Shown here: piece after piece, positions 19,575-50,576 of the stretch
Numbering within the stretch: the stretch's first letter is position 1
Layout: each line of letters begins with the position of its first letter
DNA from: Saccostrea echinata
Lineage: Eukaryota
Length of the DNA: 64,000 bases
Direction of reading: 5' to 3'
Assembly (NCBI RefSeq): GCF_033153115.1
Contig: NW_026889761.1
Coordinates: forward strand, 20,212,001 to 20,276,000
Made by a program: the position numbers and the translations under genes
The notes under the pieces: generated by a model
Told to the model about the DNA's origin: nothing
Database searches by the model: none
Seen by the model: the letters and a program-made list of their open reading frames with translations, nothing else

Positions 19575-22365
19575 ATGATTAGGATACTTGTTAGCCTTCT
19601 ATTTGAAACAGATAATGTACTATTTGAAAAAAAAAATTATTTAAGCAAAGATATCCCTGTATTGTGTATAGTTTATTTCATTTCATCGGTAATGTATTTA
19701 TTTCAGGCATTATGCAATTGCTGTACAAGTATTTGTTTTGAATCCTCTTTAAAAACTTGTTTTAGGTCATAAGTATAGAAATTGGGTTTTTTTTTTCCCG
19801 AAGAGACTTAGAAAGCAGTCTTCATTTGTCAACTATACACTGAGAAGAAGGAACTTCAATAAGAATAGTTGCTTTGGGTACAAAAACAAACGCTTGCAAA
19901 ATGTGGAACTTTGGTGTTGTCAATTATTAACAAATGGCTACATATTTTATAGGACTGAATGAAAGAATATCTCTTAAGTAATGATTGTCATATTCATTGT
20001 ATTTAAAATTAAATGAAATTTTCATTTGATTCGAGAAGACAATATCATTAAGTGATTGTATAAGGGTTATTATATTTTAGGAATACCTCTCATTTCAATC
20101 TCAAAGCCAATAACAGTAATTGAAATGATTTATTTTCCATATGAACGAGGTTTTCCCTTTGATCGTCAGGTTTCTAGTTTTCCAGAAATGACAACTTAAG
20201 TATTTTTTTCTTCTTCATTTTTTTCCATCCATATCGCTTGAGTATTCATTCCAAATCGATGATATACTCCGAAAGTTTTATGCAGGTCTTGGTTTTCATT
20301 AGGAATTAAGAAACCCTTTATCTGTGGATTTTGTGTGATTGCAAATGTCATATATATGGGCTCTGTTTGAATATCTCCAAGCAAAGATAATTCTTCCCTT
20401 AATAAATCTTTTTTTTGACCTGAATAAAATAATTTTGGCAGTACAACTTTTAACCCCTAAGACAATATTTTAGCAATGATTGTGTAATCATGTTGAGCAT
20501 TGTTAATGGTTCCCCAATTTTTAAAAAATCTTCCCTTTATGTATTAATAAATTGACTCCATTTGTTTCTGAGTGATAGAATACAGCCTTATCAAAATATG
20601 TTTAACGCCTTTAAAAAATCAGTTTCAACTTTATCTCAGTATTTCTGATAAAATTTCAAATTTCCCAGGTGATTTATTCGGTTTTAAGTAAATAACTGCT
20701 TTAAAGATCTCGTTATCATTGATATAGCAATCGACATCATCCCGTCTAATTTACATTGTACTTTATTTAATAAGAATTTTCCAATTTCACTATCTCAACC
20801 CTCCGTATTTTGTCATTTCTGTCGGATTTTCGACAAACAATAAAACACAAGGTCAGTTCATATCACACATATTCTGGACACATTTAAAATTGTATTATTA
20901 ATACAAAAAGAGTTGGATGGGTCACGAAGATATTTCTCAAACTTTGTAAAAAGGAAGGGGGCACAAGAGTACTATTACTCCTAAGCAAAAAAGTTTGAGT
21001 GGGTTACAAAGATATTTCTTGGACTTGGAGGGGGGAAGGGCATGAATACCCCTTGGAAAATGTACCATATAAGTACCTTGTTAAGTACATTCTGTCTGCA
21101 TTTGAAACTACTAGTTATTATGTGTTTTATTGTTTTCATTTTCAAGTCTTTTTTTTCTCATAGCTATGTCTCAATACCTTCACTATAACTGCTATGGCTC
21201 TGGTCTGATGACCGCCAACTGTTCAGACACACAGCAGATATATCCTGTGGGGGTCAAGGTAGGGACAAAGGAGGCCTCGCTGAATTGCTCAAAGGAATAC
21301 ACACAAGACCTAAACTGGACCATGGCTCAGTTTGATCAATGTTGTAAGCCAGATCCTGGTGATTTGTGTATTGGAGATTATGTTAATGTTGGTAACCCTA
21401 CGAATTCATCCATCTTTTATAAATACTGCATTGGAAGGAACTCATGCCAGATTCATCAAGTACAAGGGGTAGATACTTTACTCTTATCTTGTGACCAAAC
21501 GTTATATTATCCACAAACAACATTTATGGCCTTCGAATACGACTGCATAGACGGTGAGTTTCTAAAAACAAATTTTCTCAATTATTCTACGATAAATGTT
21601 TCATGAAGGATTCATATAAACAAATATTGAATGAAAATCGTTGTTCAGTAAAAATAATTGAATAAAATTTGTCGTTTCCTTAAATCTAAACTCTTTACAA
21701 AGAGTTGTTAGGAATATAATTTAAAGAAATCTTTAAATCTAGTTTTGTGTACATTTATGTACTTTGCAATGTCCAAATATATTTTATTTCATTTCAGTAT
21801 CAAAAGTTCTTATATTAAACGCAAATAAGAGCATTTCATCAGCACTCGGTGATAGTGTTTATATGCAGGGACATGACTATAATTTGGTTCCTAGTATATC
21901 ATCAGCCATGACCACGTCATCTTGTTCAATCGAGGCTCCTTTCTGTGACAGCACTATTTCCATAGAAGTCCTAGACCTGCGTTTGGCCACTGATGGTCCT
22001 GACTGCAAACAAACAATAACAATTATTGACGAACATCGATACGCATACTTAACTTGTGTAAACAATGTTAACTTTCAAAGATTCAATTTGTCGTCCGAAT
22101 ACAATTATCTGAAAGTATTTTTTTTTCAATTCCATGACTTCCAATGGCGGCCATTTTTGGTTTTGATTTAGAGGTATCAATCTTTTAGAAAGCACACAAT
22201 GTACACAGTTTACTTAGTAAAAACTTTCTTTATGAAGGCTGCAGCTAATGTAGACATTTTCAGCCTTTGTAAAGGAAATTGTTTTTGGCTTGAAATAGAC
22301 ATTTAAGTCATTGCAGTGATACTCTATCAAAAACAAAATAAGATCAACTTTTTTACCTAATTTTA

Positions 22366-22402
<37 letters not shown>

Positions 22403-24214
22403 ACAAAAATTATAAATCCTGATATTTATCTCCATTTTGATCTAGAAAAATTTATCTTTTTTCAAAAAAAGTTTACTAGGATGCTTTCAAATTTTAAATC
22501 CATGTTTCCATACATATTTTGACATGAAAAAATATCGAACATATTACATGTGTTCTATCCTCAGGTACACACTCAGATGTTATACGGATAGACTGTCCGG
22601 CTAAACCTCCCGTAACCGATTGTAATTTTACAACAACAACTGAGCTGACGCCAACTTCTAAGTTCGATACAAAAGCAGAGCCAATTATAACAAGTAATTT
22701 TTCTTTACTCTGATTTTAATTTTTTGTAGAAGTGTCTAAATATCTATCGTTTTCATCATTTTCATCTAGAAACTATTAATAATATATGATTTATGTAAAT
22801 TCTAGTAAGCTTTAAAGATCTGATTACAGATCTTGTCTGCATAATCTTGGGTATTGCTTCGGCTGGCTTGGCAACTTATCTGATGATATTGATAGTGTGT
22901 TATTGGTTTTCAAAAAAGGTAAAGTACATTTCGGTGCAAGAGGACTGTTAAAGTATAAGCTTACTTGCCTGTTCTTTGTGATTGAAAGAAAGCATTGAGA
23001 CACAGTTAACGCTTCAGGAGTTCCATTTTCGATAGTTAAATCCTGTAAATTATCCGTTAAAAAAGATAGTTTTAAAGTTTATTTTCACAGTGAAAAATTG
23101 CTGTAATTTTTAAGTTGGTGACGACAACTCTCCTTTTAACTTTAATGGGGCAAAATTAAAACTAAAGAAGTTGTGAGAAATAAAAAAATAAATATGTTGT
23201 ATGTAGATAGAATATTAATTACTTGTGAGACAGTTTATTAAAAAAAATATTCACTTATGCTTTAAAATCGTGAAAACACTAAAAAATTCCGGTCCCACAC
23301 AATTAATTCAACAACCAACTTTCAAACATTGAATATCCTCTATATATTTAGTCGCTTTTTATCATGATTTTTTGTTCATGTTCATTCAGAAAACCCGCAA
23401 AATTAGTCCGCAGAATAAAACTGAAATCAAGAAAAGCAATTGGCCAGAGAAAGAAAAGTGCACACTCGAGAAAATCGATGAAAATCAAAATCGTTTTGAG
23501 ACTGAGGCGAAATGTAGAAAAGGAGAAACACTGAATGGCGGTGATAGGCAAGAGGAACTATCAAAAGACACCAACAATGATGACGTGTACACAAGTGTTA
23601 CTCCACGCCAAAATGGTGTATTTTATATAGAAAACGAGTCTGGATCTCGACACAAGAAGAAAAAGAAGCATGCTAGACGAAATAAAAGAAAACAGCATCA
23701 ATCAGACAATTTGGAAGGAAATAAAAAGATATCAAAAAACATATCACAAACACAAGATGCTGACACAGGGGTATACGGATCAATATCGACTGACTTACTA
23801 AATCAAGATAGTCAGAATCTTACAAATATGGACCCCGTCGACCACATTAAAACCAAACAAAAGAAGAAAAATAAAAAGCGAAAACATTCCAAATATGACG
23901 ATGATATTGCTTACAAAGATATCAGAGAGACACTTACGCCTTACAAAGATATCAATCAGAAGCTTGAAATGTCCCAAACTGATGATGCAGTAGGTTATGA
24001 ATATAAGCAGTCATCGGGGAATTATTTGTTTAAAGTCATCAAGTCCAATCCATGTGATATGAAAGAGGTGAAAAAGGAGAGATCGGATATTGACGACAAA
24101 AATATGGCTGAGGAAAACCAAAGAAAAATTAAAAAGAAAAAGAAAAAGCATGCACGTAAGATGGCTGAAAATGATCACGAATGTAGCCTCTCTCAGAGCG
24201 ATATTTTGATGTAA
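19575..24214 (+). pseudogene. Disabled tandem paralog of the 917-5096 membrane-protein gene
   Basis: Homologous exons 19575-19611, 21164-21553, 21798-22173, 22565-22693, 22830-22918, 23390-24214. Lesions: exon-1 donor GT>AT (19612), +1 frameshift in the T-run near 22118-22126, GGA>TGA at 22164-22166. Confidence 0.8.
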
Positions 24215-28157: not shown

Positions 28158-30071
28158 CTAAAATAATCTAAATCCAGAAAATGTAGTAATGCGAGCACTA
28201 TCACTATAGTATCCAGTTCCAGCTGCTCGTTTGACCCACACTCTGTCACCACTACGAAGAGGGAGAATGACAAGGTTTGTTCCAGTCTGATGAATTTTAA
28301 CGGCAAACCCGCTATTGTACCAAGCCAGAGCCCTGACCTTAGAAGATCCATTTAATACTATGTCAAAATAATTATACTTTTGATAAGCAGACTGAATAGA
28401 GATATAGAACACGTAGGTTCCCCCAGTGTTGGCAGTAAAGACTCCAGTGTTAGAGTTGTAGCCCCTTCCCTCGTTATAGATTACATCAGGGAAAATTAGC
28501 GTATCCCCTGTCCATCCATTATTGTTTGATGTTATTCCAGCGGAAAATGCTATCTTCGAAATCTTATCTGAAAAGATTAATTATAATTACACATGGTTTA
28601 TCAGATATATGTAGGTGCCGTATATGTACATACAAATTCTTTTAATTTGTGATGAGGTTTCATTTCTTTCAAAGGAATGGATTTTACGAATCAAATAATG
28701 CTTGAAATGCATTACAATTTACATTCATTATACTCCTGCAAACTAAGGTATTTCTAATAATTTTCAAACATTGTTCAAACAATTAGATGTATCAATTAGA
28801 TATAAAGAGAACGAGAGCAGGACAGTAATGTTCACTGACCATCTGCCATCCACCACTGGGCTTAATAAGTATTATTCCTTTTAAAAATTGTAATATTATA
28901 AGGCGACTTCTGTCAATTTTGCGACACTTTACGCTAAAATCATTTACATTTCAATTTATTTTGAAAAATCGTTAGCACTATAACAAACTTTATTTATTAA
29001 TGAGCGACCAGAGGAATGCTGAACCATAAGCAATATTGACTGAGTAAGCATTTGAAAAGTTGAATTTGGACTTACACCAAGAGCAATATGAGAGGTAAAA
29101 CACAAATTCTTACCACAGTTTGATTTTGAGACATTTATTCGGAACACCTCTAATGAGGATACAGCAGACGACAGTTTGAGTTGTTCATATTCTGTTTTCT
29201 TTGTCCGTTCTTCGAACATGAAAACTGTGTTGGTGAAGTTTTCTGCAATTGCATCAAGTGCATATATGTACTGAAATAATAAATTCATATTTATCTGAAT
29301 CCAATTGCGACTACTGATATATGCCTAAATAGATACTTAAATTTTACCCATTTGAGTTCTGCTGATTTCAGACTGAGAGTATTCTATGTCTTTTATTGAC
29401 GCAGAAAAGTTCCCGAGCAATCCTTCCGTTCTCCAAAATATAGCATTTACATAATCAAGTGTTGAATTCAGGTGACTTTTGATTTTTTGTATGTTCTCTT
29501 CTTCAATTTTATCATCCTTTTCAGTCTTTTCCTTGAAATCCAAAAGCGTCACAGATAGATATCTTACTTCAATTTTGATATCTTCCAGAACGTGAGTAGT
29601 TTGGTTGAATAAAGCCTGACGTTTCTCTTCATTCTTTATTTCCGTGACCTGTTGGTGTTCATAAATAACTGTTATGTTTTCGTCAACTTTTGTAAAATGT
29701 TCTTGAAATTCCTGAGTCTGTTTCCGAAGTTCCTTATTATCGTCGGCAAGCTTTTTGTTTTCCTGCTGTAAAGTGTACACCTGGGTTTTCAATGTTTCTA
29801 TCATCTGCTGTAAATTGGAGACGGTGGTGTCTGATGACGCAATGTTTCGTTTAATAGAATCAACATCATTCATTAAAACGTGAACATTTTTGACCAAGGC
29901 TAAGCGAATAACAGTTTCTTGATTAATCATCTGCCATAGTACATTTAGATTATTTAAATTTTCTCTCCCTGTTAATGTTGTAGAATTGCTGTCTTCGTTA
30001 TCGGTTAACAACGACAAAGCTCCCGAGTAAGTAAAGAAGAGAAAAACTACATAAAGTCTGAGAAACTTCAT
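28158..30071 (-). CDS. Secreted C1q-domain-containing protein (signal peptide, coiled coil, C-terminal globular C1q)
   Basis: Exons 30071-29348 ([20 protein letters not shown] then heptad-rich), 29242-29114, 28567-28158, joined in phase 1; last exon [53 protein letters not shown] is a canonical gC1q. Confidence 0.92.
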
Positions 30072-30529
30072 TCTGCCAGCTAAACCTGTCAAATAGAAAA
30101 GGAGATTTATATAGTCGTATGGAGATCATCTGACTGTACATCTAGTATTTTTTAAAAACATTGACACAGAAAAAGAACACAGTAACAATTGGCAACACTC
30201 AAATGCTCTCAAAATATTTGCATTAATAATATTTCTATGAGTTATCGACCAAAGTGTGCTGTTTACTTGAGAACTTAATTACGGTGTTCAAGTATTTTGA
30301 GAAAAAATATAAATCTTAACTAAGCAGCAAAACTAAAATAAGCTTCGAGTGCTCTCCTACGACTGAACACGTCATTTAAATAGTGATAATTGTCAATTTA
30401 AGTGAACACTTTTGAAGCACTTTCCTCGTTGGGATTCTTGAAAAATGAAAACAAAGAGCAAGGGCCACGAACTATCAAAAATGGCCCTATCTAAAAAATA
30501 AACGTGCTTTAGTTATTAATAGTATAGAC

Positions 30530-38163: not shown

Positions 38164-39768
38164 CTATGCTGTACGGTTATATGGTGGAATGTTATGCAGT
38201 TCTTTATACTCGGGACATCTTGGGATGTATTCTTCTATGTAATGCTCTATCGTGTCATGAATTGTATCACAATGACCTTCAATTTTCATTGGAAATGCAT
38301 CACTAACACACGTGTCTCTCTTTTCTCTAAGCCATACGAGTGTCTCGCACATACAATCCACTTTGTTCTCATCAAGAAGTACTTTTTCTAAACATGGCCA
38401 GACTGTGTTGATTGCCTTAGGCACTGACGTCAGATGTGTAGATCTGAAATCCAAAGTCTTCAACCTTGGTACTCTGCCAAACGCATTCTCAGAAATGTAT
38501 TTTAAAGATGAATTCCGTATAATGAAGGCTTCTAAGTATCGAAGATCCTTCATGTCATTTGTGTCAATAGTTACAATTCCATTGAGGGATAAATCTAGGA
38601 CTTTCAAATACCGAATTTGAGAAAGTGCTGCAGGAACACGCAAAAGCGAACAGTTCCTAAGAGTTAAATTTGTTACAGTTCTTAAATCCCCGATATTCAG
38701 ATCACTAAGATATCTCAAGTTTTTATCATCCAGACTGAAATTTTTCAATGCTGGAAGGTATCTCAATACTCTGGGAAATTCTGTTAGAGAATCCCTATTT
38801 AATGACAAAGTCTGCAAGTAAGGGGAATTTAACGGGAAAGCCTGTATCAAAACCCCCCTGTCTGTCACGTAAGGGTTTTGGTCAAAGTGTAGCTCCTTCA
38901 AATTTTTTAGTTTGCTGATTGCAATAGGCACTGCTAGCAGATAAGTGTTTTTAATGTTTAAATATTGAAGCGTGGTTTCAAATCCATGAAAACTTTCAGC
39001 ACCAATGTCTCGAATAAAACGACTAAGACTGGCGACTGTAAGTCTGTTAAGTATCGGTAGATGGTGCAGTGAAGTTGGCCATGATGTAAGAGTTTCACTT
39101 CCGATTTTGAGGTCAGTAAGGGTATCTCCAAGCGCGCGCATCACGCTCTCTGTATAATCTGTACCACGTGTCAAAGGATTGTGGGTAATATCTAACGTTT
39201 CTAATGAATGTAAATCCGCTAATGATGGTGGCAAATTTCTGAGTTTGTTGTTGCTCAAATCAAGCAGCAAAAGAGTGTTTTCTACATCTTCAAAGGCCCC
39301 TAAAGAAATATTCTGCAAATTGTTGCCTTGAAGGTAAATTTCTTTGAAATGGGTACCTCTAAATTGGTAAGACTGGATATTCAAAATTCGATTATAGGAA
39401 AGGTCGAGGTAGTCATATGACATGGCAAAATTAATATCTGCAGGAAATGACGGAACAGACGAAAGATTCCGAAGGCTACAGTCCACATATCTATCCCGAC
39501 ATGAACATTGCAAAGCGAGGCCACCTGGACACTGCGCAGTTATTCCAGATATTCCAAATAGAATTGTCAATAAAACCACAGGAAACTGCAAAGATAGATA
39601 TTAAATTAAGAATTAATTTTAAATAATTTACGTTTATAAAAAAGAAATATATTTAGCTTCATTAGAGTTTCATATTATTACTCATGGGTATAAGTACGTA
39701 AAAATTGCCATTTAATCCAAATTGAAAATATATAACTAAGTGTATATTTCTACCTGATAAAGCGCCAT
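38164..39768 (-). CDS. Secreted LRR-only protein 1 (SP, LRRNT, about 12 LRRs, LRRCT)
   Basis: Exon 39768-39754 (MALYQ) spliced in phase 0 to 39585-38164; CP..CSC..VDC N-cap, LxxLDLSxN repeats, VDCMCETLVWL..CDTI..CP C-cap; no TM. Confidence 0.92.
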
Positions 39769-42003
39769 ATCCTTTCTTCCAGTGTGTGGATGATGACGCT
39801 CCAATAAATCCAATGAACAACAGAGATTTAAGAAACGTGATAAAGAAAACATACTTTGACAGGCATACCTGAATTGTTTTGCAACTAAAGAGGTCTAAAT
39901 TTAAAATGATATGGCCACTATCTTAATTTTTTTCAAACATTCCCATAACATTTAAGTTGATAAGTTCCTATTCAGTCTAGCTGTATTTCTAAGGATGACA
40001 AGATGTTCACTTACTGTTCTGCATTCCTTCTAAATTCTGAATCAATTTTAATCCATGAGTCGATATCTTTTGCTTGAAATGTATTTCACTATCTTCAATG
40101 CCAAATGATATTGACTATGAAATATGTCATTTAGTCAAATTCATTATATACCTTTAGGTCTTCTTTGAGGTTTTGACTTCGCTTTAAGACAAATGCGCAA
40201 CTTCATGTCATTGACAATTCAACATCAAAATCTGATTAATAAGTGTCGATGGAATTTGAGACCTACTTGAGGTGAGACCATGACACAAATGTACAGCTCA
40301 TGAATCTTTTAAACTTAACATGATTTTGTGAACTAATTTATAATTAACTGCACATTTTGGAAATAAATATATGGCTACTAAGCGAATCCGTAAAGAAAAT
40401 AAAAAAAATGAATTTGGCAATTTTCGTAAAGTTTCTTCTATCTTCGTGATTGATAATATGCATTGTAGTCTTAAATTTGTATATGCCCCCACCCCTTCGT
40501 CCTTTTTTGGTATGAATAACAACCTTGGTGCAATTAGGCACGTTATGAACTAAGTTTTCACAAAACGTCTTTTAATTGAATACCATTCTGCAGAAATATC
40601 TTAATTATGTCATTTTAGCCGTTTTTACCAAATTCCTCATATTTCACACCAAAATTCCAATGAATTTCACCAGACTGATTATCATTTAGCATTGTTACCC
40701 GGCCGTGTTAATGTAGAAAATACACTGCGTTTGAGAAACTCTTTTGTGTTCATTAGAAGAAACTGAAGGATGCTAGTACCATGTGTGTTTGTTTAGGATT
40801 CTCCACAAAAGTATTGTGAAATATAATACTGTATTATATAGTAGCAGGTCATAATTAAAAAAGAACAAGAGAGTTTCTGAAATAGAATCTAGTTTCTACA
40901 CTTTTGTCCTCGAAAGTGCTGATTCAAACCCAAATAAATCAAACAAAGGAGACCAGACCTTACTCAAACCATTCAAGAACAGTGCTCAATTCCAAAGAGA
41001 AATTCTTTGAAAACTTAGTTCATAACATTCTGAATTGCATTAAGATGGTTATTCGTGCCAAATGGGGAGCAAGTACTTCAAAGCAGATTACCAATCATGA
41101 ATATAAAAACTATCATAATTACGTAAAATTGATATCTTTTTTCATCGTTGTATAGAAACATTTCAGTTCTTTAAAAAAATAGTTTATAAAAGAATGTTAG
41201 ATTAAAAGGATTCTGCTGAGTTGTAGCTGTAGATAATCAGAATATGAAACAGCATAATGAAGTTTCAAGATATTCCAAACAACAGTTCTTGAGCCTTCGC
41301 CAGGACATGATTCCACCATCTCTTTCTGCAGTGTCCCTGTCATTGTAAATGTGATTCTGAGTCGAGTTCAAGAAATATCTTTTGGTCATCACAAAAATAT
41401 ACCTAATACTATAATAATAAAGATTCGAGATGCATGGCCCAGCTACAGAAATCACAAATGTAGTAAAATGCTATATTAATGGAAGCATTTCAACATGTTA
41501 AAATTTTATTCTTACATCTTTGTATTATAAATGATAACATAAATAATTTTTCATGATAATCCTGAAATGCCTCTGAAGAGCAGCAGTGCATAATTAAGAT
41601 AAAAACGCATCTCCATCTTGTGTAGAATGGAGCCAAAAACAATTGAAATTTGAAGTATAACATAAAAATATTTAAAGATAAAACTTAAATATTTTTTCAT
41701 CAAAGCAAACAGGGCTAAATAGTCAAATATATAATATTATCTAAAAGTATCGTAGATTAAAGAATATGGAAATCATGAACCCGGACTACAGTGAAGGAAT
41801 CAACTTTTTACAAAGGAATATATTTATAGTTTATCGATATTTTCCTTTACATCTGCAATGAAACTTACAACACAATTGATTAAAGCAGACATATTTATAA
41901 CAAAGAGTACAATTCACAATATAATTATTGTTTTATCTTGATAAAAGTTATATAGTTAACAAACTGATACAATTTTGTGTTACAGACCGATAGAAAAAAG
42001 AGT

Positions 42004-43974
42004 TTAATGTCCATTGTACGGTGCAATATGGTGTTCCTCCTTATACTGGGGACACTTGGGAATGTAATTGGTGACATAGTCATTGACCTTGGAATCAATC
42101 GTGTCACACTCTCCAGTAATTGTCATGGGCGATCCATTTATCCTACATTCATCTGTTTTATTGGCCAACCACACAAGGGTTTCACACATGCAGTCGATCT
42201 TATTACCATCCAGATGAAGTTGTGCAATACACGGATATAGCATATTAACTGCTTGTGGAACCTGGGTTAGTTTCGTATTTTCAAAATTCAAACTCACCAA
42301 GTTATGCAAATTCTCAAGAGCAGTGTTCGATATGTATTCCAACGACGCGTTTTGAATTTTCAAATGTTGAAGGTTTGGAAGATTTCGTAGATCATTTTGT
42401 TCAATAGTCCTAATGGCGTTTTTTGATAGATCAAGCGTTGTTAAGAAGTCTAAGTCTGCCAGAGCTCCAGGGATTCTATCTAAGCCACAGTCGATCAGAG
42501 TAAGGTTAACCACGGTTACATTTCCACTGATGGAGGCATCGCTGAGAAAATCAAGAACATTTCTATCCAAACTCAGACTAACCAGTCCTCTCAAATACTT
42601 CAATACAGGAGGAAATTTTGTCAGCCCATCAGCATTCAAAGTGACTGTTCTTAATTTATGACTGCTCAAGGGAAAAGACTGTATTAATACACCCCTATCA
42701 GTCACTTGAGGATTGTCATCAAAATGAAGTTCTTCGAGATTCCTTAATTTGCTTATTCCGATGGGTACAGCTACCAAATGCGTATGTTCTATTTTTAGGT
42801 AAAGAAGAGTTGTTTCAAAGCCATGGAAAGCCTCAGGGGGCAAGACTTTCATAAATCTTCCCATTTCATCAACATGCAGGCGTTGGAGTTGAACAAAATG
42901 GTTCAAAGTGCTTGGCCAGCCAAACAACTGATCACTTCCAAAAGTAAAACTAATAATAGTGTCCCCCATTGCCTTCATAACGTCATCTTTAAAGTCACCT
43001 GACGATCGCATAGGATTATGGGATACATCCAAGTCTTCAATTTTGTTTAACTGTTTCAAAGCCGTGGGAAGATGGCGAAGACTGTTATGGCTCAGATCAA
43101 GATACGTAACAGAATCTTTTAATCCTTGGAAAGCTCCAGTGGAAATGTGACTATCATTAAGCGCGTTATTTGAAAGATAAACAATCTTAAATGGCGCATT
43201 AGTAAAGCTTCCATTATTCAAACTCATTATGCTGTTTCGTCTCAGATCTAACACATCATATTCAGCAGCGACGTTGGAGGCGGAGAAAGACGGAATGTGG
43301 GTATGTCCTCTGGCAACACAGTCGACATAACGAACACGACAAGAACAACCGGAGGGACAAACGGCGTTAGTGAAGCAGAGGCAGATACTGAACACAACGA
43401 ACCAAATCTAGAAATATAGAATCGAATTATTTATAATCTATACATCACATTTAGATAAAAACAAAAAAGAGAAGACTGGGTAAATACCCACATTGTCTCC
43501 CCTTTTCAGGTTGAAAAGGGGGGGGGGGGGGTTAGAAAACATAATATTGCTAATTTTTAATATTACCGTTTTTGTTATGTAAGTTATAAATTTCAGATTA
43601 ACAAGCTATTAGAAATATATTCAAAAAGGAATATTGTATAAATTATTTCCTTCCTTTGATCTTTGTCTTATCAGTTGTGTAAGGTTAAAGTTTAGAATTC
43701 ACTTTAGTTTTTTTTTTTTTAAAATTGTTTTTAATCTCTTCGTGTCAGATTCTATACTTTTTGTCCTTGTATTCTAATAAAATTGTACAGAATGGCAAGA
43801 ACGTATAAAAAGACGATAAAAAATTTCAAATTATAAAAAAAATGAATTCCACATATATCTATTAAACTTATTATTGACTCTTTCATTGACTCGATCTAAT
43901 GAATTTGGCTTTAAAAATCAAACCGAGTACTTGTTTAACTGTGAACATTTTCTACAAGGAGAAAAACTTACCAT
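42004..43974 (-). CDS. Secreted LRR-only protein 2
   Basis: ATG|gtaag at 43974-43972 spliced to 43407-42004 (IWFVVFSICLCFTNA signal); same LRRNT/LRR/LRRCT layout; closest to protein 1. Confidence 0.92.
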
Positions 43975-45024
43975 CTTCAGTTTGGTTGACAAGGTATAAA
44001 AAATGAAACACCTGTCTTTGTTTAGAGGAGCCCTATACCCCGTCCCTGACGACGGTACTATCCTTATCAGACTTGAAGGCACCCGGCATAATTATCTTTA
44101 TACTTCCGTATAGAAAGAGCAGCTGATTTGTTAAAAAAAGGTCTTTACCTTAGAAACACATGCATCTGATGATATTAAACTATACATGTTAACTATAAGT
44201 GTTACTATTACTAGTCAAAGAAAAATATTCAAAAGGCATTAAACAAAATAGCAACATACTTTCTAACGGTTATAACTAATTCATTTTTTTTTAAATTTCA
44301 TTATCAAATGAATTTTTTGTGTCTTATTACTCCTGTGTCTATTTGTGTAAATATTTAACGCTCACTTATCATCACTTGTTAAAAAAGACATTTGACAAAT
44401 TATTCACATTTTTTAGCTCTGACCCAGACCTTAATTAAGTATTGAGTAATACGTATTTTATAGCATTTATTGGCACCGTTTATCGGTTTATTCTGTACAT
44501 TAGAAGACAACTGCACTATATTCCCATAAATAACCTTGTTTCTGTATTCCCCTTATATCGTTATCTTTCAGGTTTCAAATTCCAAATCGAAAGACTGCAA
44601 TTGGTAAACAGTACATTTAGATATGAAAGTAGGTATTTATACCATTTTAAAGCTACAATCTAAATTTAATTATATGGAATGATTTAAATGAATCCATTAG
44701 AAGTTTAAAAATACAGTGATACCTTTTTACATATTGTGCTGTGTACATTTTGTAAAAATAAAATTTTGATGATTAAAGTTAGAAAAAAGACTATTTTGAA
44801 AGTATTTTGCTTTATTTTTGGCGGGACGTTACATTGAAGAAGTTACATATGTTGGGTTTATTCGGGTTATTGCAAACAGTTGACTATTAATTATTGTAAA
44901 AAATCGCATTAATCCCTAAATTGAAAAACACTTATTTTCTATACTGACATTTTAAACTGTAAGAATTATTTCTACCACCAATATTGATAATGACATCATG
45001 CATTAATCGTCTCAGAGATGTTCG

Positions 45025-45036
45025 TGTGACGTCACA
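45025..45036. promoter_or_regulatory. CRE/ATF palindrome TGTGACGTCACA in the divergent promoter region
   Basis: Perfect TGACGTCA core about 165 nt upstream of the LRR3 ATG. Confidence 0.35.
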
Positions 45037-45196
45037 TGACAGGCATCAGCTTATTCACAGTTTCAGGGTTTTTTGTCCTTACATAAGTAAATGTAAATAT
45101 TAAGGTTTTCTCAAGGCAATCTTTATAATCAACATTTAATAACCACATTGTTAGTATTTGCATCCTATTTTAATTACATGTAACTTCAACAAAAGA

Positions 45197-47113
45197 ATGG
45201 TACTTTTCAGTATACACTAGAGAATAAATAGTTACAGTACTTATTCTTTGTTAAAGCAATATGAGCTGCATTTTTGAGAAATTTATTTTGCTGTTAAAAA
45301 TGTGATTTTATGATCAATCTATTATGTAACTTTAATCTTTATGATCAATTAGACTAAAATAAGGTATAAAATTGTTTCAGAAGAAAAAATTTTGTACAGT
45401 GGAATGTATTGCATAAGAAATCAATATTGTACAGGACGACAATAATGTAATAAATTACGGAATATAATGTAATGGTTCAATCAAAGATTAAAATTAGTTC
45501 TTCCATCGCAAATATAAAAAATAAAATTTTCTTAAGCTTCTTTTTTCTGTCATTGAAATAGTTAAATACAATATTGCAACAAAAATTTCCGACAACAGAG
45601 TTGCAGCTCATATTGCTTTAAATAAAGATGTTTTGATAACAAACTTTTTTTTTCAATTAATTGCACTATTATTACTCAGATACATTGTGCGTTTTTCTTT
45701 AAATTCCAGGTGTTACGATGGTTTTTTGTTTGTTGCCTCCACAGTGAGACCTTCGGACAGATCGATTATTCGTCATGTTGTAGTAATTTCCCCGACAGCA
45801 CTCTCTGTGGTTGTGAAAACGAAGTAATTCAATGCCATAACCTCATTTCCACACCAAGCTTGCGACAAGATCGTCGTTGTCGGGTTGTGGATATTAGAGA
45901 AAGTTATCTACCCATTACTCCCTTTGATTTCAACCACATACAAACTGACAGACTAATCCTGAGCAACAACCATCTCAACAACTCAAACATTGACCCCCTC
46001 GCGTTTAACAACTTGAAAGACACGCTGAAAGAACTTGTTTTGTCGAACAATTTGCTGACATCAGTTCCGCAGGCAATAAAGGAATTGAACCACTTGGAAC
46101 TTTTAGATCTATCTGGAAATCCAATATCTGCTAATAGTTTTGATGAAAATGTAATGAGGGGGATAGGCGATACGTTGACAGATTTACGCTTTGGTGGACC
46201 AGAGCTCACGTCCTGGCCATCTACACTTAATCATCTACAGGCGCTGCAGAAGTTGACTGTTACTGAATCAGTCTTTACATTAATGCCATTCGATGCCTTC
46301 CATGGATTCCAAGGAACATTAAAAGAATTAACAATACAACATAGCCAATTGTCATCTATCCCACTGGCTGTTGCAAGTTTGAGGTACTTAGAGGTGCTTC
46401 GTTTTGATGACAACCATAAAGTTGGTAATCAAGGCATGCAAGCTCCAATTGTCTCTGGTTTATTACCATATCTATATAATGTGTCCTTACAAGCGGACAA
46501 CATTACCGAATTTCCTCAAATTTTAGGAGTGTTCGAGAAACTTAAAAATGTTGTTTTAGACAGAAATAATCTGAAGTTTGTGAGTGACGAATCTGCAGCT
46601 TCTGTAAACCAGACGTCGTCTCTGAGCCTGCGTGATTCCGGCTTGACGAGAATTCCTGAAGCTTTCCAACGGATTGCTGCCCTAGAGTCATTAGATCTTT
46701 CCATCAACAATATCCACAGTATAGACACCAAAGACCTGCGTCAACTTGTCCACTTAAAGACACTCCTTTTGAACAGTAACCCCATTTTATACATGTCACC
46801 AAACGCACTTTCCAACAACAGGATGTTAGAAAGAGTAGAATTGAAATCAACAAACCTAACAAAAGTTCCATGTGCAGTAAAAGGGTTGATGCTGGCTCAT
46901 CTCCATGCCGGAAGTAGCCGTAACATTACGGTAGATTTACAGTTCAATCAAATACAGTGTACCTGCGAACTGCAGTGGCTTCATGTAGCCATTACGACCA
47001 TGCCTTCAATATCATTAAAGATCGAGGGACGGTGCGATACGATAGAGAAAGCCATCCAGGAATACATCAATGATGATTTACCCGCATGTCCTGGAGGAGC
47101 TAAGTGTTCTTAA
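45197..47113 (+). CDS. Secreted LRR-only protein 3
   Basis: Probable ATG|gtac at 45197-45199 spliced to 45710-47113 (acceptor ttccag); Cys N-cap, LRRs, IQCTCELQWL..CDTI..CP; no TM. First exon less certain. Confidence 0.9.
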
Positions 47114-47939
47114 ACCACTATTAAAGACTAAAATAAATTCAATGACAAATATTAGTATGAATCTTTCATGAAACGTAATCAGTTTGTAACATGTCCAAAC
47201 TATCTCTCTCTCTTCAAAGTGCATGTACAATGTAGTTCGGTTTATAGAATTTGTTAGTTTATAAAACGGTTTTCTTTCTTTTTTAAATTGTAATGTAGTT
47301 TTGTCTATTTGGGCATTATTCTGTGCATTCTCTTTATCAAACCTAACATTAATTTACAATTTGAAATAAAATAGAACTAATTAAGTTACAAACAAAATAC
47401 TCGCTAGTGACTACAAATATTTTTCTGTCGAAATATTTTCAGAAAAAATAAAACAATGTCATATTTAGCAATGATTTATCTCGAACTCTTTAAAAATACA
47501 AGAGTTTGGTATTTTTAGAATTCAAAAAAAAAAAAAAAAAAAAAAAACAAACAAAAAAAAAAAAAAACAAAAACAAAAACACTTTTTTTTCATAGATGAG
47601 TTAAATGATTCAATTTAAAATAATAAAAATAATTTATTTATAAAATAGGTAATTCTACTATGGATTGAAAGAAATTGCAATGCAGTATTTCGAATTTAAC
47701 AATATTCTAAGTGTAATTCTGTGAGAGCAAAAAAAATGGTAATTCCGTAATATGACAGACAGCACCTAAAGTCCAAGATAAGCCGATGTGTGACGTGTAG
47801 ATCAGATGTTACCTGCTGGGAGTGCAGGCCACTAACCAATATTTCCTGATAGAGGAGGGCTATATTGACCTGCTTTAAAAACTCTTAAATTCAAGCATTT
47901 GACTTTAATTTCTTTTTATGAGTTTTGTATTTTGTTGAG

Positions 47940-50032
47940 ATGCTGACGTCAATATTGGTATGTATATTAATTATTTATTTACTTGTTTAATCAAAATTTT
48001 TATTTAAGCAATTATATTAGTGATTTTAAGAGACAAAGATATCTAGTTTGAGATTTTTATAAAAATAATGCAACAAGACAACACTAAACTAATTATCTTT
48101 TTTTTCACTCTATTCCCTGAAACGGCACAAAGGTTACATACTTAACTCTTGCAGGAAAACTTCCGGTTTTCCTCCAGGTCTTATTCCTTATTTTTTATGA
48201 TGATTTACAAATGATACGGAGATAACAAAACGACATGCACACACACACCCTCTCTCTCACACACACCCCCACACGCAGAATATGAAAAAGAGAGTAAACT
48301 TGTATTGCAAGAAAACACGCTTTTTAAAGTTCGATTCTACACATAACTTTGCACTTCCCTAACAACATATCTACGATTCTTTGCTACATGGAAATTCTAG
48401 AGTGAAGCAGTAAGAACTGATACACAAATAACTGTCACTAAATGTGATATTAAACTATATTGTGGTGTTATTTTGGTTGCAGAGATTCATTCATCCGCAT
48501 GAGATTCTTTTTGTTACATTGTAAGATTTTAAAAGTTTTTAATTTTCAATTCCGCAATATTTCTAACATAATAATAGATGGTGACTATCATTCTCTGTGT
48601 AAGGGTAAATATTCCCATTTTGTAGATCTGCTTTGCTCTGATATGCAGAGCAGTAGAGCCTGGCGTAGTTCCTGGAAGAAGAGCATCGTGTACCCCACCC
48701 ATTTCATATGACGGCACTTGTAGCTGTGAAAATGATGTCGTGACCTGTACAGGACAATCGGCCGTGCCATCCTTCAGCACTATGTATCATTACAAAAAAG
48801 TTTCCATTGTCAACGGTAACTTCAGAAATGCAATCAGGACTGGGAATCCCTTTGCTAACCTGCGTACAGACGAATTGGTTCTACACAACATGACAATTTT
48901 AGCGATTGCTCCTCACGCTTTCCTACCTGTGAAATCTATGCTGAAGAAGTTGGATCTTTCCAACAATTTTCTTACTGTGCTTCCATCTGCTCTTCATGAC
49001 CTTGACGTACTAGAGTCCCTTGATGTTTCTGAGAATTCTATTGGTGATAGAAACTTTACTGAAGAGGTTTTGAGGAAAATTGGAGCAACCCTGAAGTCAT
49101 TCACCTTTGGTAGTTACGACATACAACAATGGCCTGTTACTCTCAAACACCTTCAGATGCTTCAAAATCTTAATGTAACAAAAGCAGCATTCCAGTTTAT
49201 GCCCCAGGATGCTTTTTACGGATTTTCTGGGACTTTGTTAACCTTAAGTCTAGGTACTACTGGTCTCACTTCGGTACCTCTAGCTGTTGCTCAATTGCGA
49301 TATTTGCAGACATTTAATTTCGATCACAATATCAATGTTGGAGATTATGGTATGAATGTTCCATTGATTCGTGGTAGGATGCCATATTTAACAAATATTT
49401 CTCTGCAACAAGACAGCTTAAAAACGTTCCCATCAGCCCTCTCTGCATTTGAAAACTTAAAATCTGTTAGCATGGATCTGAATACTCTGGACTTTGTCAG
49501 TGATCATGCCGCTAATTCTGTCAGACAAATTGAAAACCTGAGTATGCGCAATTCTAACATTTCCCGTATCCCACAGGCCCTGGCGGATATTACATCACTA
49601 AAATCTCTGGACTTATCAGACAACCGTATACATAGCATCGATGTGAAAGATGTCAAAATTTTGCATTCAGTGAAAGAAATCAAACTAAACAATAATCCCA
49701 TCCTCTATATTTCAAATCATGCTTTTGATAGTAATGGAAATTTGGAGCGATTAGAACTGAGGAATACGCATTTGAAGGAGGTACCATGCGCTCTAAAATA
49801 CGCCATTGAAAACTTGACACGCGTGAAACACAACTTTCCTCTCACTGTTGACATTTCTAACAACGCAATCGCGTGTACGTGCGAGTTAAAGTGGCTTGCT
49901 GATACACTCAGTACACATCGGGCCAACATATCATGGAATATAATCGGAAACTGCGAAACTATTGTTATGAGTATCAACGATTACCTGAATTCTGAAAGTC
50001 TCAGGGATTGCCCCACATCAAATATTTGTTAA
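47940..50032 (+). CDS. Secreted LRR-only protein 4
   Basis: Exon 47940-47957 (MLTSIL|gtatg) spliced in phase 0 to 48626-50032 (ICFALIC...CSCENDVVTC); LRRs; IACTCELKWL..CETI..CP; closest to protein 3. Confidence 0.92.
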
Positions 50033-50576
50033 TTAAACATCATTCTTTATTTAATCTCTCTTTCCTCTTGTTTCTTTCTTCTCAGACCCAGTTTCAGATA
50101 AATAAACACTTAAGTCACCGCTTCAGATACATTTTAGCTTTAAGCTTCAATCAAATGCATTTGAGTCAATACTACTCGTTAAAAGTGAACTTAAAAATCT
50201 ACGTTTATTGAAATCTGGTCAGCACTATATTTTAGCAGATATGATTTTATGATGATTAAGAGAAGTAAGAGAAGCAACAAAAATGTCAAAATTCATACCT
50301 TTTTGATGTAGAATTCAGACTCCAGCTTTGACGAATTTCTTTTGAAGTCTTCCATACAAATGGACAATCCAACGGGCAATCTTTAATTGATAGTAAGGTT
50401 GATGAGGTGAAAGCCCTAAACATGAGTCTAAAATTCAGTTCCAGATTAAGTTAATGTACCTTTACCTTATAAAGTTTAAATTCATCTTTTCGTCTATCAT
50501 TTATAGATATCAAGCTATATATATATATAACAATAACGACGTCATAACAACCAAGTTGTATTGTTTTTATAAACTT

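What the first reader, a model, noticed from the sequence alone, without database searches (positions are those of the whole stretch)
38164..50032. Four secreted LRR-only paralogs in a divergent 2+2 cluster: candidate soluble pattern-recognition family
Seen: four intact ~465-480-aa proteins, each with signal peptide, LRRNT, about 12 LRRs and LRRCT, with no TM, TIR or GPI-type tail. Each has a tiny first coding exon and one uninterrupted ~1.4-kb exon. All share unusual signatures (VxRx(I/L/M)GxTLxxxxxGxxxLxxWPxxLxH, F(H/Y)GFxxTL, GxCxTI..I..Y) yet are strongly diverged elsewhere. LRR1/2 (-) share VTDRGVLIQxFPL and a YKExHxIxPYN tail; LRR3/4 (+) share VGxxGMxxP..PYLxNxSLQ. This implies an ancestral head-to-head pair whose arms each duplicated. 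Inference: a co-regulated, possibly heteromeric secreted recognition system analogous in logic (not shown homologous) to mosquito LRIM1/APL1, next to a C1q-domain gene. A matrix or shell role is equally possible.
Basis: partly seen in the sequence, partly recalled or inferred. Interest (0 to 1): 0.7.

Follow-up and report, generated by a model that had tools for sequence, protein, structure and literature searches.

The report
Oyster secreted leucine-rich-repeat gene cluster
Four neighbouring, transcribed oyster genes encode likely secreted horseshoe-shaped proteins of an old bivalve family whose scallop relatives are filed as "LRR-only" immune proteins, so they likely bind microbes, and two of them are weakly predicted to pair up.

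Summary
The four open frames are real and transcribed. Transcript contigs confirm the short first introns of LRR1 and LRR2 and run through all four stop codons, so there is no membrane exon in them. The LRR2 model has 15 repeats, not about 12. The window's proteins match annotated Saccostrea echinata records. They are not a new oyster invention: they belong to a bivalve-wide family (oysters, pearl oyster, mussels, scallops, ark shell, clams, freshwater mussel) with at least nine members in this genome. LRR3 and LRR4 are co-orthologous to scallop 'leucine-rich repeat protein 4' (AIL02132), and a bay-scallop 'LRR only protein 6' is in the family. By name AIL02132 is probably CfLRRop-4, reported to bind LPS, peptidoglycan, glucan and poly I:C; I could not verify that link. 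All four lack the coiled coil that joins mosquito LRIM1/APL1C. A structure prediction of LRR2 with LRR4 passed only weakly (0.50 against 0.00). Best reading: soluble microbe-binding LRR-only proteins, new members of a known kind; a mucus, gut or matrix role remains open. The old 2+2 cluster and possible heterodimer were not found in print.

The parts
38164..39585 (-). LRR1 main coding exon (signal peptide core, LRRNT, LRRs, LRRCT, stop)
   Evidence: ORF; acceptor confirmed by joint 39585/39754 and contigs through the stop to 38072 and 37986
39754..39768 (-). LRR1 first coding exon (5 codons), intron 39586-39753
   Evidence: ATG..GT candidate; joint in run X1
42004..43407 (-). LRR2 main coding exon; 15-repeat horseshoe with N- and C-caps
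   Evidence: AlphaFold model pLDDT 90, pTM 0.86; contigs run through the stop to 41674 and 41574
43972..43974 (-). LRR2 start codon at the end of the first exon, intron 43408-43971
   Evidence: joint 43407/43972 in runs X1 and X2, two studies
43975..45709 (.). Region between the divergent genes LRR2 and LRR3; holds LRR3's unplaced first exon (candidates at 44623 or 45197) and a small inverted-repeat element
   Evidence: candidates; no joint seen; a shared promoter is untested
45710..47113 (+). LRR3 main coding exon from the phase-0 acceptor
   Evidence: contig pieces 45859-47174 in run X1 cross the stop
47940..47957 (+). Likely LRR4 first coding exon (6 codons)
   Evidence: ATG..GT candidate that matches the length and character of the N-termini of orthologues P0079 and P0081; inferred, no RNA joint
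48626..50032 (+). LRR4 main coding exon
   Evidence: 100% to annotated S. echinata protein P0077; contig 48656-50114 crosses the stop and ends past an AATAAA

Best explanation
These are four intact, transcribed genes for likely secreted LRR-only horseshoe proteins of an old bivalve family, which likely act as soluble binders of microbial surface molecules in body fluids or on gut and gill surfaces. Shown: gene structure, transcription, a single capped solenoid fold (model), family membership and co-orthology of LRR3/4 with scallop AIL02132. Inferred: export through the signal peptide, binding of ligands on the concave beta-sheet face, and hand-over to haemocytes or effectors through partner proteins, since the proteins have no signalling domain of their own. 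The two subfamilies (LRR1/2, LRR3/4) split early and each duplicated before oysters and pearl oysters separated.
For: Architecture. Reciprocal search: scallop AIL02132 hits LRR3 (E 2e-96) and LRR4 (2e-90) best in this genome, then LRR2, LRR1 and the C47 paralogue. Careful tree of 28 rows: LRR3, LRR4, mussel and scallop proteins form one clade, 97/93; a clade of oyster-side cluster genes without scallop and mussel is rejected, p-AU 2.8e-5 (group named after earlier trees were seen). Bay-scallop AVP74326 'leucine rich repeat only protein 6' is a family member whose five best hits in this genome are the four genes and the C47 paralogue. A review states that recombinant CfLRRop-1, -3, -4, -5, -6 bind LPS, PGN, glucan and poly I:C and that -4, -5, -6 respond to microbes (PMC5877582, passages). 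LRR2's concave face has diverged faster than the rest against the Pacific oyster orthologue (28 of 60 against 152 of 221, p 0.002).
Against: The identity of AIL02132 with CfLRRop-4 rests on name, number and species only: the primary paper is not held and accession searches found 0 papers. The review describes CfLRRops as having 1-4 'LRR domains', which does not plainly match 15 repeats. Binding of four unrelated polyanions or glycans by recombinant protein is weak evidence of specificity, and the concave faces are net acidic (-3 to -8), not ideal for LPS or RNA. The family is small and stable (at least 9 in this genome), 19 of 23 listed coding differences are silent, LRR4's concave face is conserved (48 of 60), and the LRR2 effect is not significant against the eastern oyster (36 of 60, p 0.12): more like a fixed ligand than an arms race. 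No tissue or challenge data were obtained.
Confidence: 0.5

Rival explanations
1. They are secreted mucus, gut-style or matrix proteins that bind a conserved host ligand (carrier, enzyme partner or inhibitor, or matrix organiser), like acid-labile subunit, carboxypeptidase N subunit 2 or the small LRR proteoglycans, and are not immune receptors.
For: Stable orthologue groups across oysters at 66-92% identity; mostly silent polymorphism and a conserved LRR4 face; nearest atlas clusters by features include luciferase non-catalytic subunit-like, acid-labile subunit and phospholipase A2 inhibitor-like LRR proteins as well as a coil-less LRIM (leads only). [quoted passage not shown]
Against: The shipworm entry is a name match only; its supplement lists only carbohydrate enzymes. 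The only family members with a non-automatic name are scallop LRR-only proteins.
Confidence: 0.3
2. One LRR1/2-type and one LRR3/4-type chain form an obligate heterodimer made from the divergent gene pair, with a conserved subunit (LRR4) and a more variable one (LRR2), working as a two-part recognition unit.
For: Predicted LRR4+LRR2 complex: score 0.50 (runs 0.50, 0.50, 0.54), best of 3 controls 0.00, runs agree in at least 94% of contacts, partner pLDDT at least 86; verdict weak support (mark reached by 51 of 78 solved and 2 of 108 mismatched pairs, but at 0.60 or under by only 5 solved and all 4 mismatches that passed; eukaryotes 71 of 105 solved, 2 of 126 unrelated). The Pacific oyster appears to have doubled both LRR2 and LRR4 types. 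Concave identity to Pacific oyster: LRR2 28 of 60, LRR4 48 of 60, p 0.0003, with no difference elsewhere (p 0.54).
Against: Controls were unrelated proteins, not other LRR horseshoes; solved LRR dimers are many, so the pass may be from memory or reflect a family homodimer surface. No coiled coil or tail after the C-cap. Tandem paralogues stay linked without binding. Co-expression is untested.
Confidence: 0.17
3. The frames are ectodomain exons of membrane receptors (TLR-like or LRIG-like) whose anchor exons lie downstream.
For: Automatic names such as LRIG3 and LRRC15; single large LRR exons occur in TLR genes (own knowledge).
Against: Contigs read through all four stops into 3' UTR; none of 76 family rows has a hydrophobic window above 1.07 near the C-terminus; no longer relative above 29% identity over more than a quarter of the query among 25 hits (weak by the tool's own caveat).
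Confidence: 0.03

Closest known systems
Scallop LRR-only proteins (CfLRRop series; GenBank AIL02132 'leucine-rich repeat protein 4', Azumapecten/Chlamys farreri; AVP74326 'leucine rich repeat only protein 6', Argopecten irradians)
   Same: Same length (463-479 aa), signal peptide, capped LRR solenoid without other domains, family motifs; 39-40% identity of AIL02132 to LRR3/4; same clade.
   Different: Two oyster co-orthologues for one scallop protein, plus the sister subfamily LRR1/2 for which no named scallop member was retrieved; no function measured for the oyster proteins; link of accession to the assayed protein unverified.
Mosquito LRIM family (LRIM1/APL1C)
   Same: Secreted, clustered LRR proteins of invertebrate body fluid; a coil-less subfamily exists (PMC3020904 abstract).
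   Different: No coiled coil, 15 repeats against 6-14, a different cysteine pattern (CxC...C...C cap, no C-CC motif in LRR1, 2, 4); no homology beyond generic LRR shown.
Vertebrate capped LRR ectodomains and secreted LRR proteins (LINGO-1, LRIG1, LGR4/5, TLR ectodomains, acid-labile subunit)
   Same: Same fold class; best structural matches TM 0.57-0.68; sequence matches cover only parts of the profile.
   Different: 15-23% identity, no Ig, TM, TIR or GPCR part; no solved structure of this family.

Membership tests
Bivalve LRR-only proteins (LRRop) | LRR motifs with caps and no other domain | tested here: met
   Only LRR families in Pfam; one solenoid in the model
Bivalve LRR-only proteins (LRRop) | Homology to a deposited scallop LRR-only protein | tested here: met
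   AIL02132 in the LRR3/4 clade, 97/93; AVP74326 in the wider family
Bivalve LRR-only proteins (LRRop) | AIL02132 is the assayed CfLRRop-4 | tested here: inconclusive
   Name match only; paper not held; 0 papers for the accession
Bivalve LRR-only proteins (LRRop) | Binds microbial molecules; induced by challenge | not testable with these tools
   Needs assay and labelled RNA-seq
Mosquito LRIM | Signal peptide | tested here: met
   Hydrophobic N-termini; first exon by RNA for LRR1/2, inferred for LRR4, unplaced for LRR3; no dedicated predictor was run
Mosquito LRIM | 6-14 LRRs | tested here: not met
   15 repeat strands in the LRR2 model against PMC3020904 abstract
Mosquito LRIM | C-terminal coiled coil (Long and Short LRIMs) | tested here: not met
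   7-16 residues from the last Cys-Pro to the stop
Mosquito LRIM | C-CC cysteine motif after the repeats | tested here: not met
   Cys positions give a CxC...C...C cap; motif described in PMC3020904 section 10
Mosquito LRIM | Disulphide-linked heterodimer that carries a complement-like protein | tested here: inconclusive
   Only a weak predicted LRR2-LRR4 pairing, no interface given
Toll-like receptors / LRIG | Membrane helix with TIR, or Ig domains | tested here: not met
   Stops read through in RNA contigs; no such Pfam hit

The most novel reading that the evidence does not exclude
An ancient head-to-head LRR cluster encodes a coil-free heterodimeric soluble recognition system of bivalves: an LRR3/4-type subunit with a conserved face pairs with an LRR1/2-type subunit whose ligand face evolves faster, and paired duplications give combinatorial receptors. 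This would be a molluscan parallel to LRIM1/APL1 that arose independently.
Probability: 0.17. Interest if true: 0.65.

Novelty: new member of a known kind. Interest (0 to 1): 0.33.

Why it matters
It ties scattered scallop 'LRR-only' proteins, known one clone at a time, to a definable bivalve family with conserved motifs, gene structure and an old gene cluster, and corrects gene models that lose the signal peptide. If they are soluble microbe binders they are candidates for disease-resistance work in farmed oysters; if they heterodimerise they would be a second invertebrate two-chain LRR recognition system. Without the heterodimer it is a routine extension of a known kind.

Tried and rejected
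Literature link by accession: 0 papers for 6 oyster accessions and 0 for 6 others including AIL02132; 'CfLRRop' occurs in 3 held papers, none giving accessions in the passages seen. Supplements of PMC13070813 (1 file), PMC7720132 (1 file) and PMC6005338 (7 files) hold none of the orthologue identifiers searched; those tables may use other identifiers, so this is no evidence about expression. PMC4892480 has no LRR mention in its main text. The shipworm style lead could not be tied to a sequence (12 of 14 supplements searched). One search listed 40 papers, none with the orthologue's name. Earlier scan findings: none. First exons of LRR3 and LRR4: no joint in 7 runs laid. Contig depth was not used to rank genes, as the tool forbids it. 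Promoter motif scan of the divergent gap found one CRE palindrome and GATA/TATA words, with no control, not used. C1q neighbour rejected as evidence. The careful tree of 76 rows did not finish; the quick tree was used and a careful tree was built on 28 chosen rows, which left out the pearl-oyster LRR2 rows and left LRR1's relation to P0006/P0134 unresolved (83/86). Only one of the possible pairs (LRR2+LRR4) was folded; homodimers and LRR2+LRR3 were not.
Full report
Observation. The four long frames are at the stated places and match only LRR families in Pfam. Pairwise identity is 49% for LRR1/2, 44% for LRR3/4 and 35-37% across the pairs. Each frame begins at a phase-0 splice acceptor. No membrane-like stretch follows the N-terminus and only 7-16 residues run from the last Cys-Pro to the stop.

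Transcription. Contigs of runs guessed to be RNA bridge 39586-39753 (LRR1, run X1) and 43408-43971 (LRR2, runs X1 and X2, two studies) with GT-AG ends, which shows that they are spliced transcripts. Contigs cross all four stop codons into 3' UTR, and stretches 44510-45043 and 47180-48247 have no cover in 4 of 4 runs. LRR4-like contigs occur in three further runs. No joint was seen for LRR3 or LRR4. LRR4's first exon is likely 47940-47957, as it reproduces the N-terminus of its Pacific-oyster orthologues; LRR3's is undecided. Tissues are not given, so presence of all four in run X1 is no evidence of co-regulation.

Family. LRR2 and LRR4 match annotated Saccostrea echinata proteins. Searches with LRR2 (22 hits), LRR4 (19 hits) and a profile give a set of 400-500-residue proteins, from which I chose 71 full-length or single-stretch rows for a tree; named ones come from Saccostrea, Ostrea, Crassostrea/Magallana, Pinctada, Mytilus, five scallops, Tegillarca, Mercenaria and Sinanodonta. 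Many rows are unnamed, so a range beyond bivalves is neither shown nor excluded. None of the 76 rows has a hydrophobic C-terminal window above 1.07, and no longer fused relative was found (weak). In this genome a fifth close member lies on C47 and four distant single-frame members on C29 and C5; counts are lower bounds.

History. LRR1/2 and LRR3/4 fall in two separate, well supported clades (97/94 and 97/93). Pinctada imbricata has an LRR2-type protein and a fused gene model whose N-part matches LRR3 best (51%, E 4e-27, against 30% to LRR4) and whose C-part groups with LRR4, so the LRR3-then-LRR4 order predates the split of oysters and pearl oysters. The Pacific oyster has two LRR2-type proteins 93% alike and a fused model of two LRR4-type genes; no named Crassostrea LRR1 or LRR3 was retrieved, but neither was used as a single query.

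Known relatives. Scallop AIL02132 'leucine-rich repeat protein 4' hits LRR3 and LRR4 best in this genome and sits in their clade; a clade without scallop and mussel rows is rejected. Bay-scallop AVP74326 'leucine rich repeat only protein 6' is a more distant member. A review (PMC5877582, passages) reports six CfLRRops, binding of LPS, peptidoglycan, glucan and poly I:C by five of them including -4, and induction of -4 to -6 by microbes; PMC10178686 and PMC12551460 (passages) add CfLRRop-7 as a secreted receptor that regulates antimicrobial peptides. That AIL02132 is CfLRRop-4 is my inference from name and species; the primary paper is not held, and supplements or papers I could not see may settle it. 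I found no paper on the oyster genes or the cluster.

Selection. Of the coding differences that one search listed (its table showed 40 rows and withheld 58), 15 of 17 in LRR2, 3 of 5 in LRR1 and 1 of 1 in LRR4 are silent: the genes are under purifying selection. At 60 concave-face positions LRR2 keeps 28 against the Pacific-oyster orthologue, fewer than elsewhere (152 of 221, p 0.002), while LRR4 keeps 48; against the eastern oyster the LRR2 contrast is not significant (p 0.12) but the LRR2-LRR4 difference holds (p 0.015). The 'elsewhere' class includes buried residues, these are uncorrected tests on protein identity, and they are hints only.

Mechanism. The likeliest reading is a soluble binder: exported, disulphide-capped, glycosylated (7-8 sequons per frame), binding through the concave sheet and acting through partners (confidence 0.5; binding and partners inferred). 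A host-ligand role in mucus, gut style or matrix is the main rival (0.3); the one pointer, a same-named entry in a shipworm style proteome (PMC8561940, section 7 and supplement 12), is a name match only. The LRIM comparison fails on coiled coil, cysteine pattern and repeat number (PMC3020904, abstract and section 10). A predicted LRR4+LRR2 complex scored 0.50 against a best control of 0.00, with at least 94% agreement between runs and partner pLDDT at least 86; the tool calls this weak, as only 5 of 78 solved complexes but all 4 passing mismatches scored 0.60 or under, the controls were not LRR proteins, and solved LRR dimers may be remembered. I put the heterodimer at 0.17.

Verdict. A real, well observed cluster; new oyster members of the bivalve LRR-only kind already proposed as pattern receptors in scallops. 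The family definition, the age of the cluster and the hint of pairing are modest additions. Interest 0.33.

Noticed in passing
window 45252-45620: A 370-bp element with a perfect 19-bp terminal inverted repeat, matched by many unrelated transcript contigs: likely a miniature inverted-repeat transposon just upstream of LRR3's main exon.
   Followed up: partly
window 1689-5096 and 21115-24214 (+): Two paralogous multi-exon genes 19 kb apart: cysteine-rich exons, in the first copy a threonine-rich stretch, and a long lysine/acid-rich last exon; no Pfam hit. They look like duplicated cell-surface proteins.
   Followed up: no
window 28158-30125 (-): C1q-domain gene with signal peptide and long coiled-coil-like region, 8 kb from LRR1.
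   Followed up: partly
window 57134-57622 (-): Acidic frame with several Tyr-x-x-hydrophobic motifs, like the cytoplasmic tail of a membrane receptor; no Pfam hit.
   Followed up: no
window 38164-50032, public gene models: Database models disagree with the evidence: LRR1 starts at an internal Met and lacks the signal peptide (P0009, 419 aa), LRR2 has a longer N-terminus than the RNA joint allows (P0023), LRR4 uses another first exon (P0077); neighbours are fused in Pacific-oyster (P0096) and pearl-oyster (P0084) models.
   Followed up: partly
L005 (G000:C47), L016-L018 (G000:C29), L019 (G000:C5): Five further single-frame secreted-type LRR genes of the same build; three on C29 form their own clade.
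   Followed up: partly
window 45027-45034: A perfect CRE palindrome in the gap between the divergent LRR2 and LRR3 genes; no control, may be chance.
   Followed up: no
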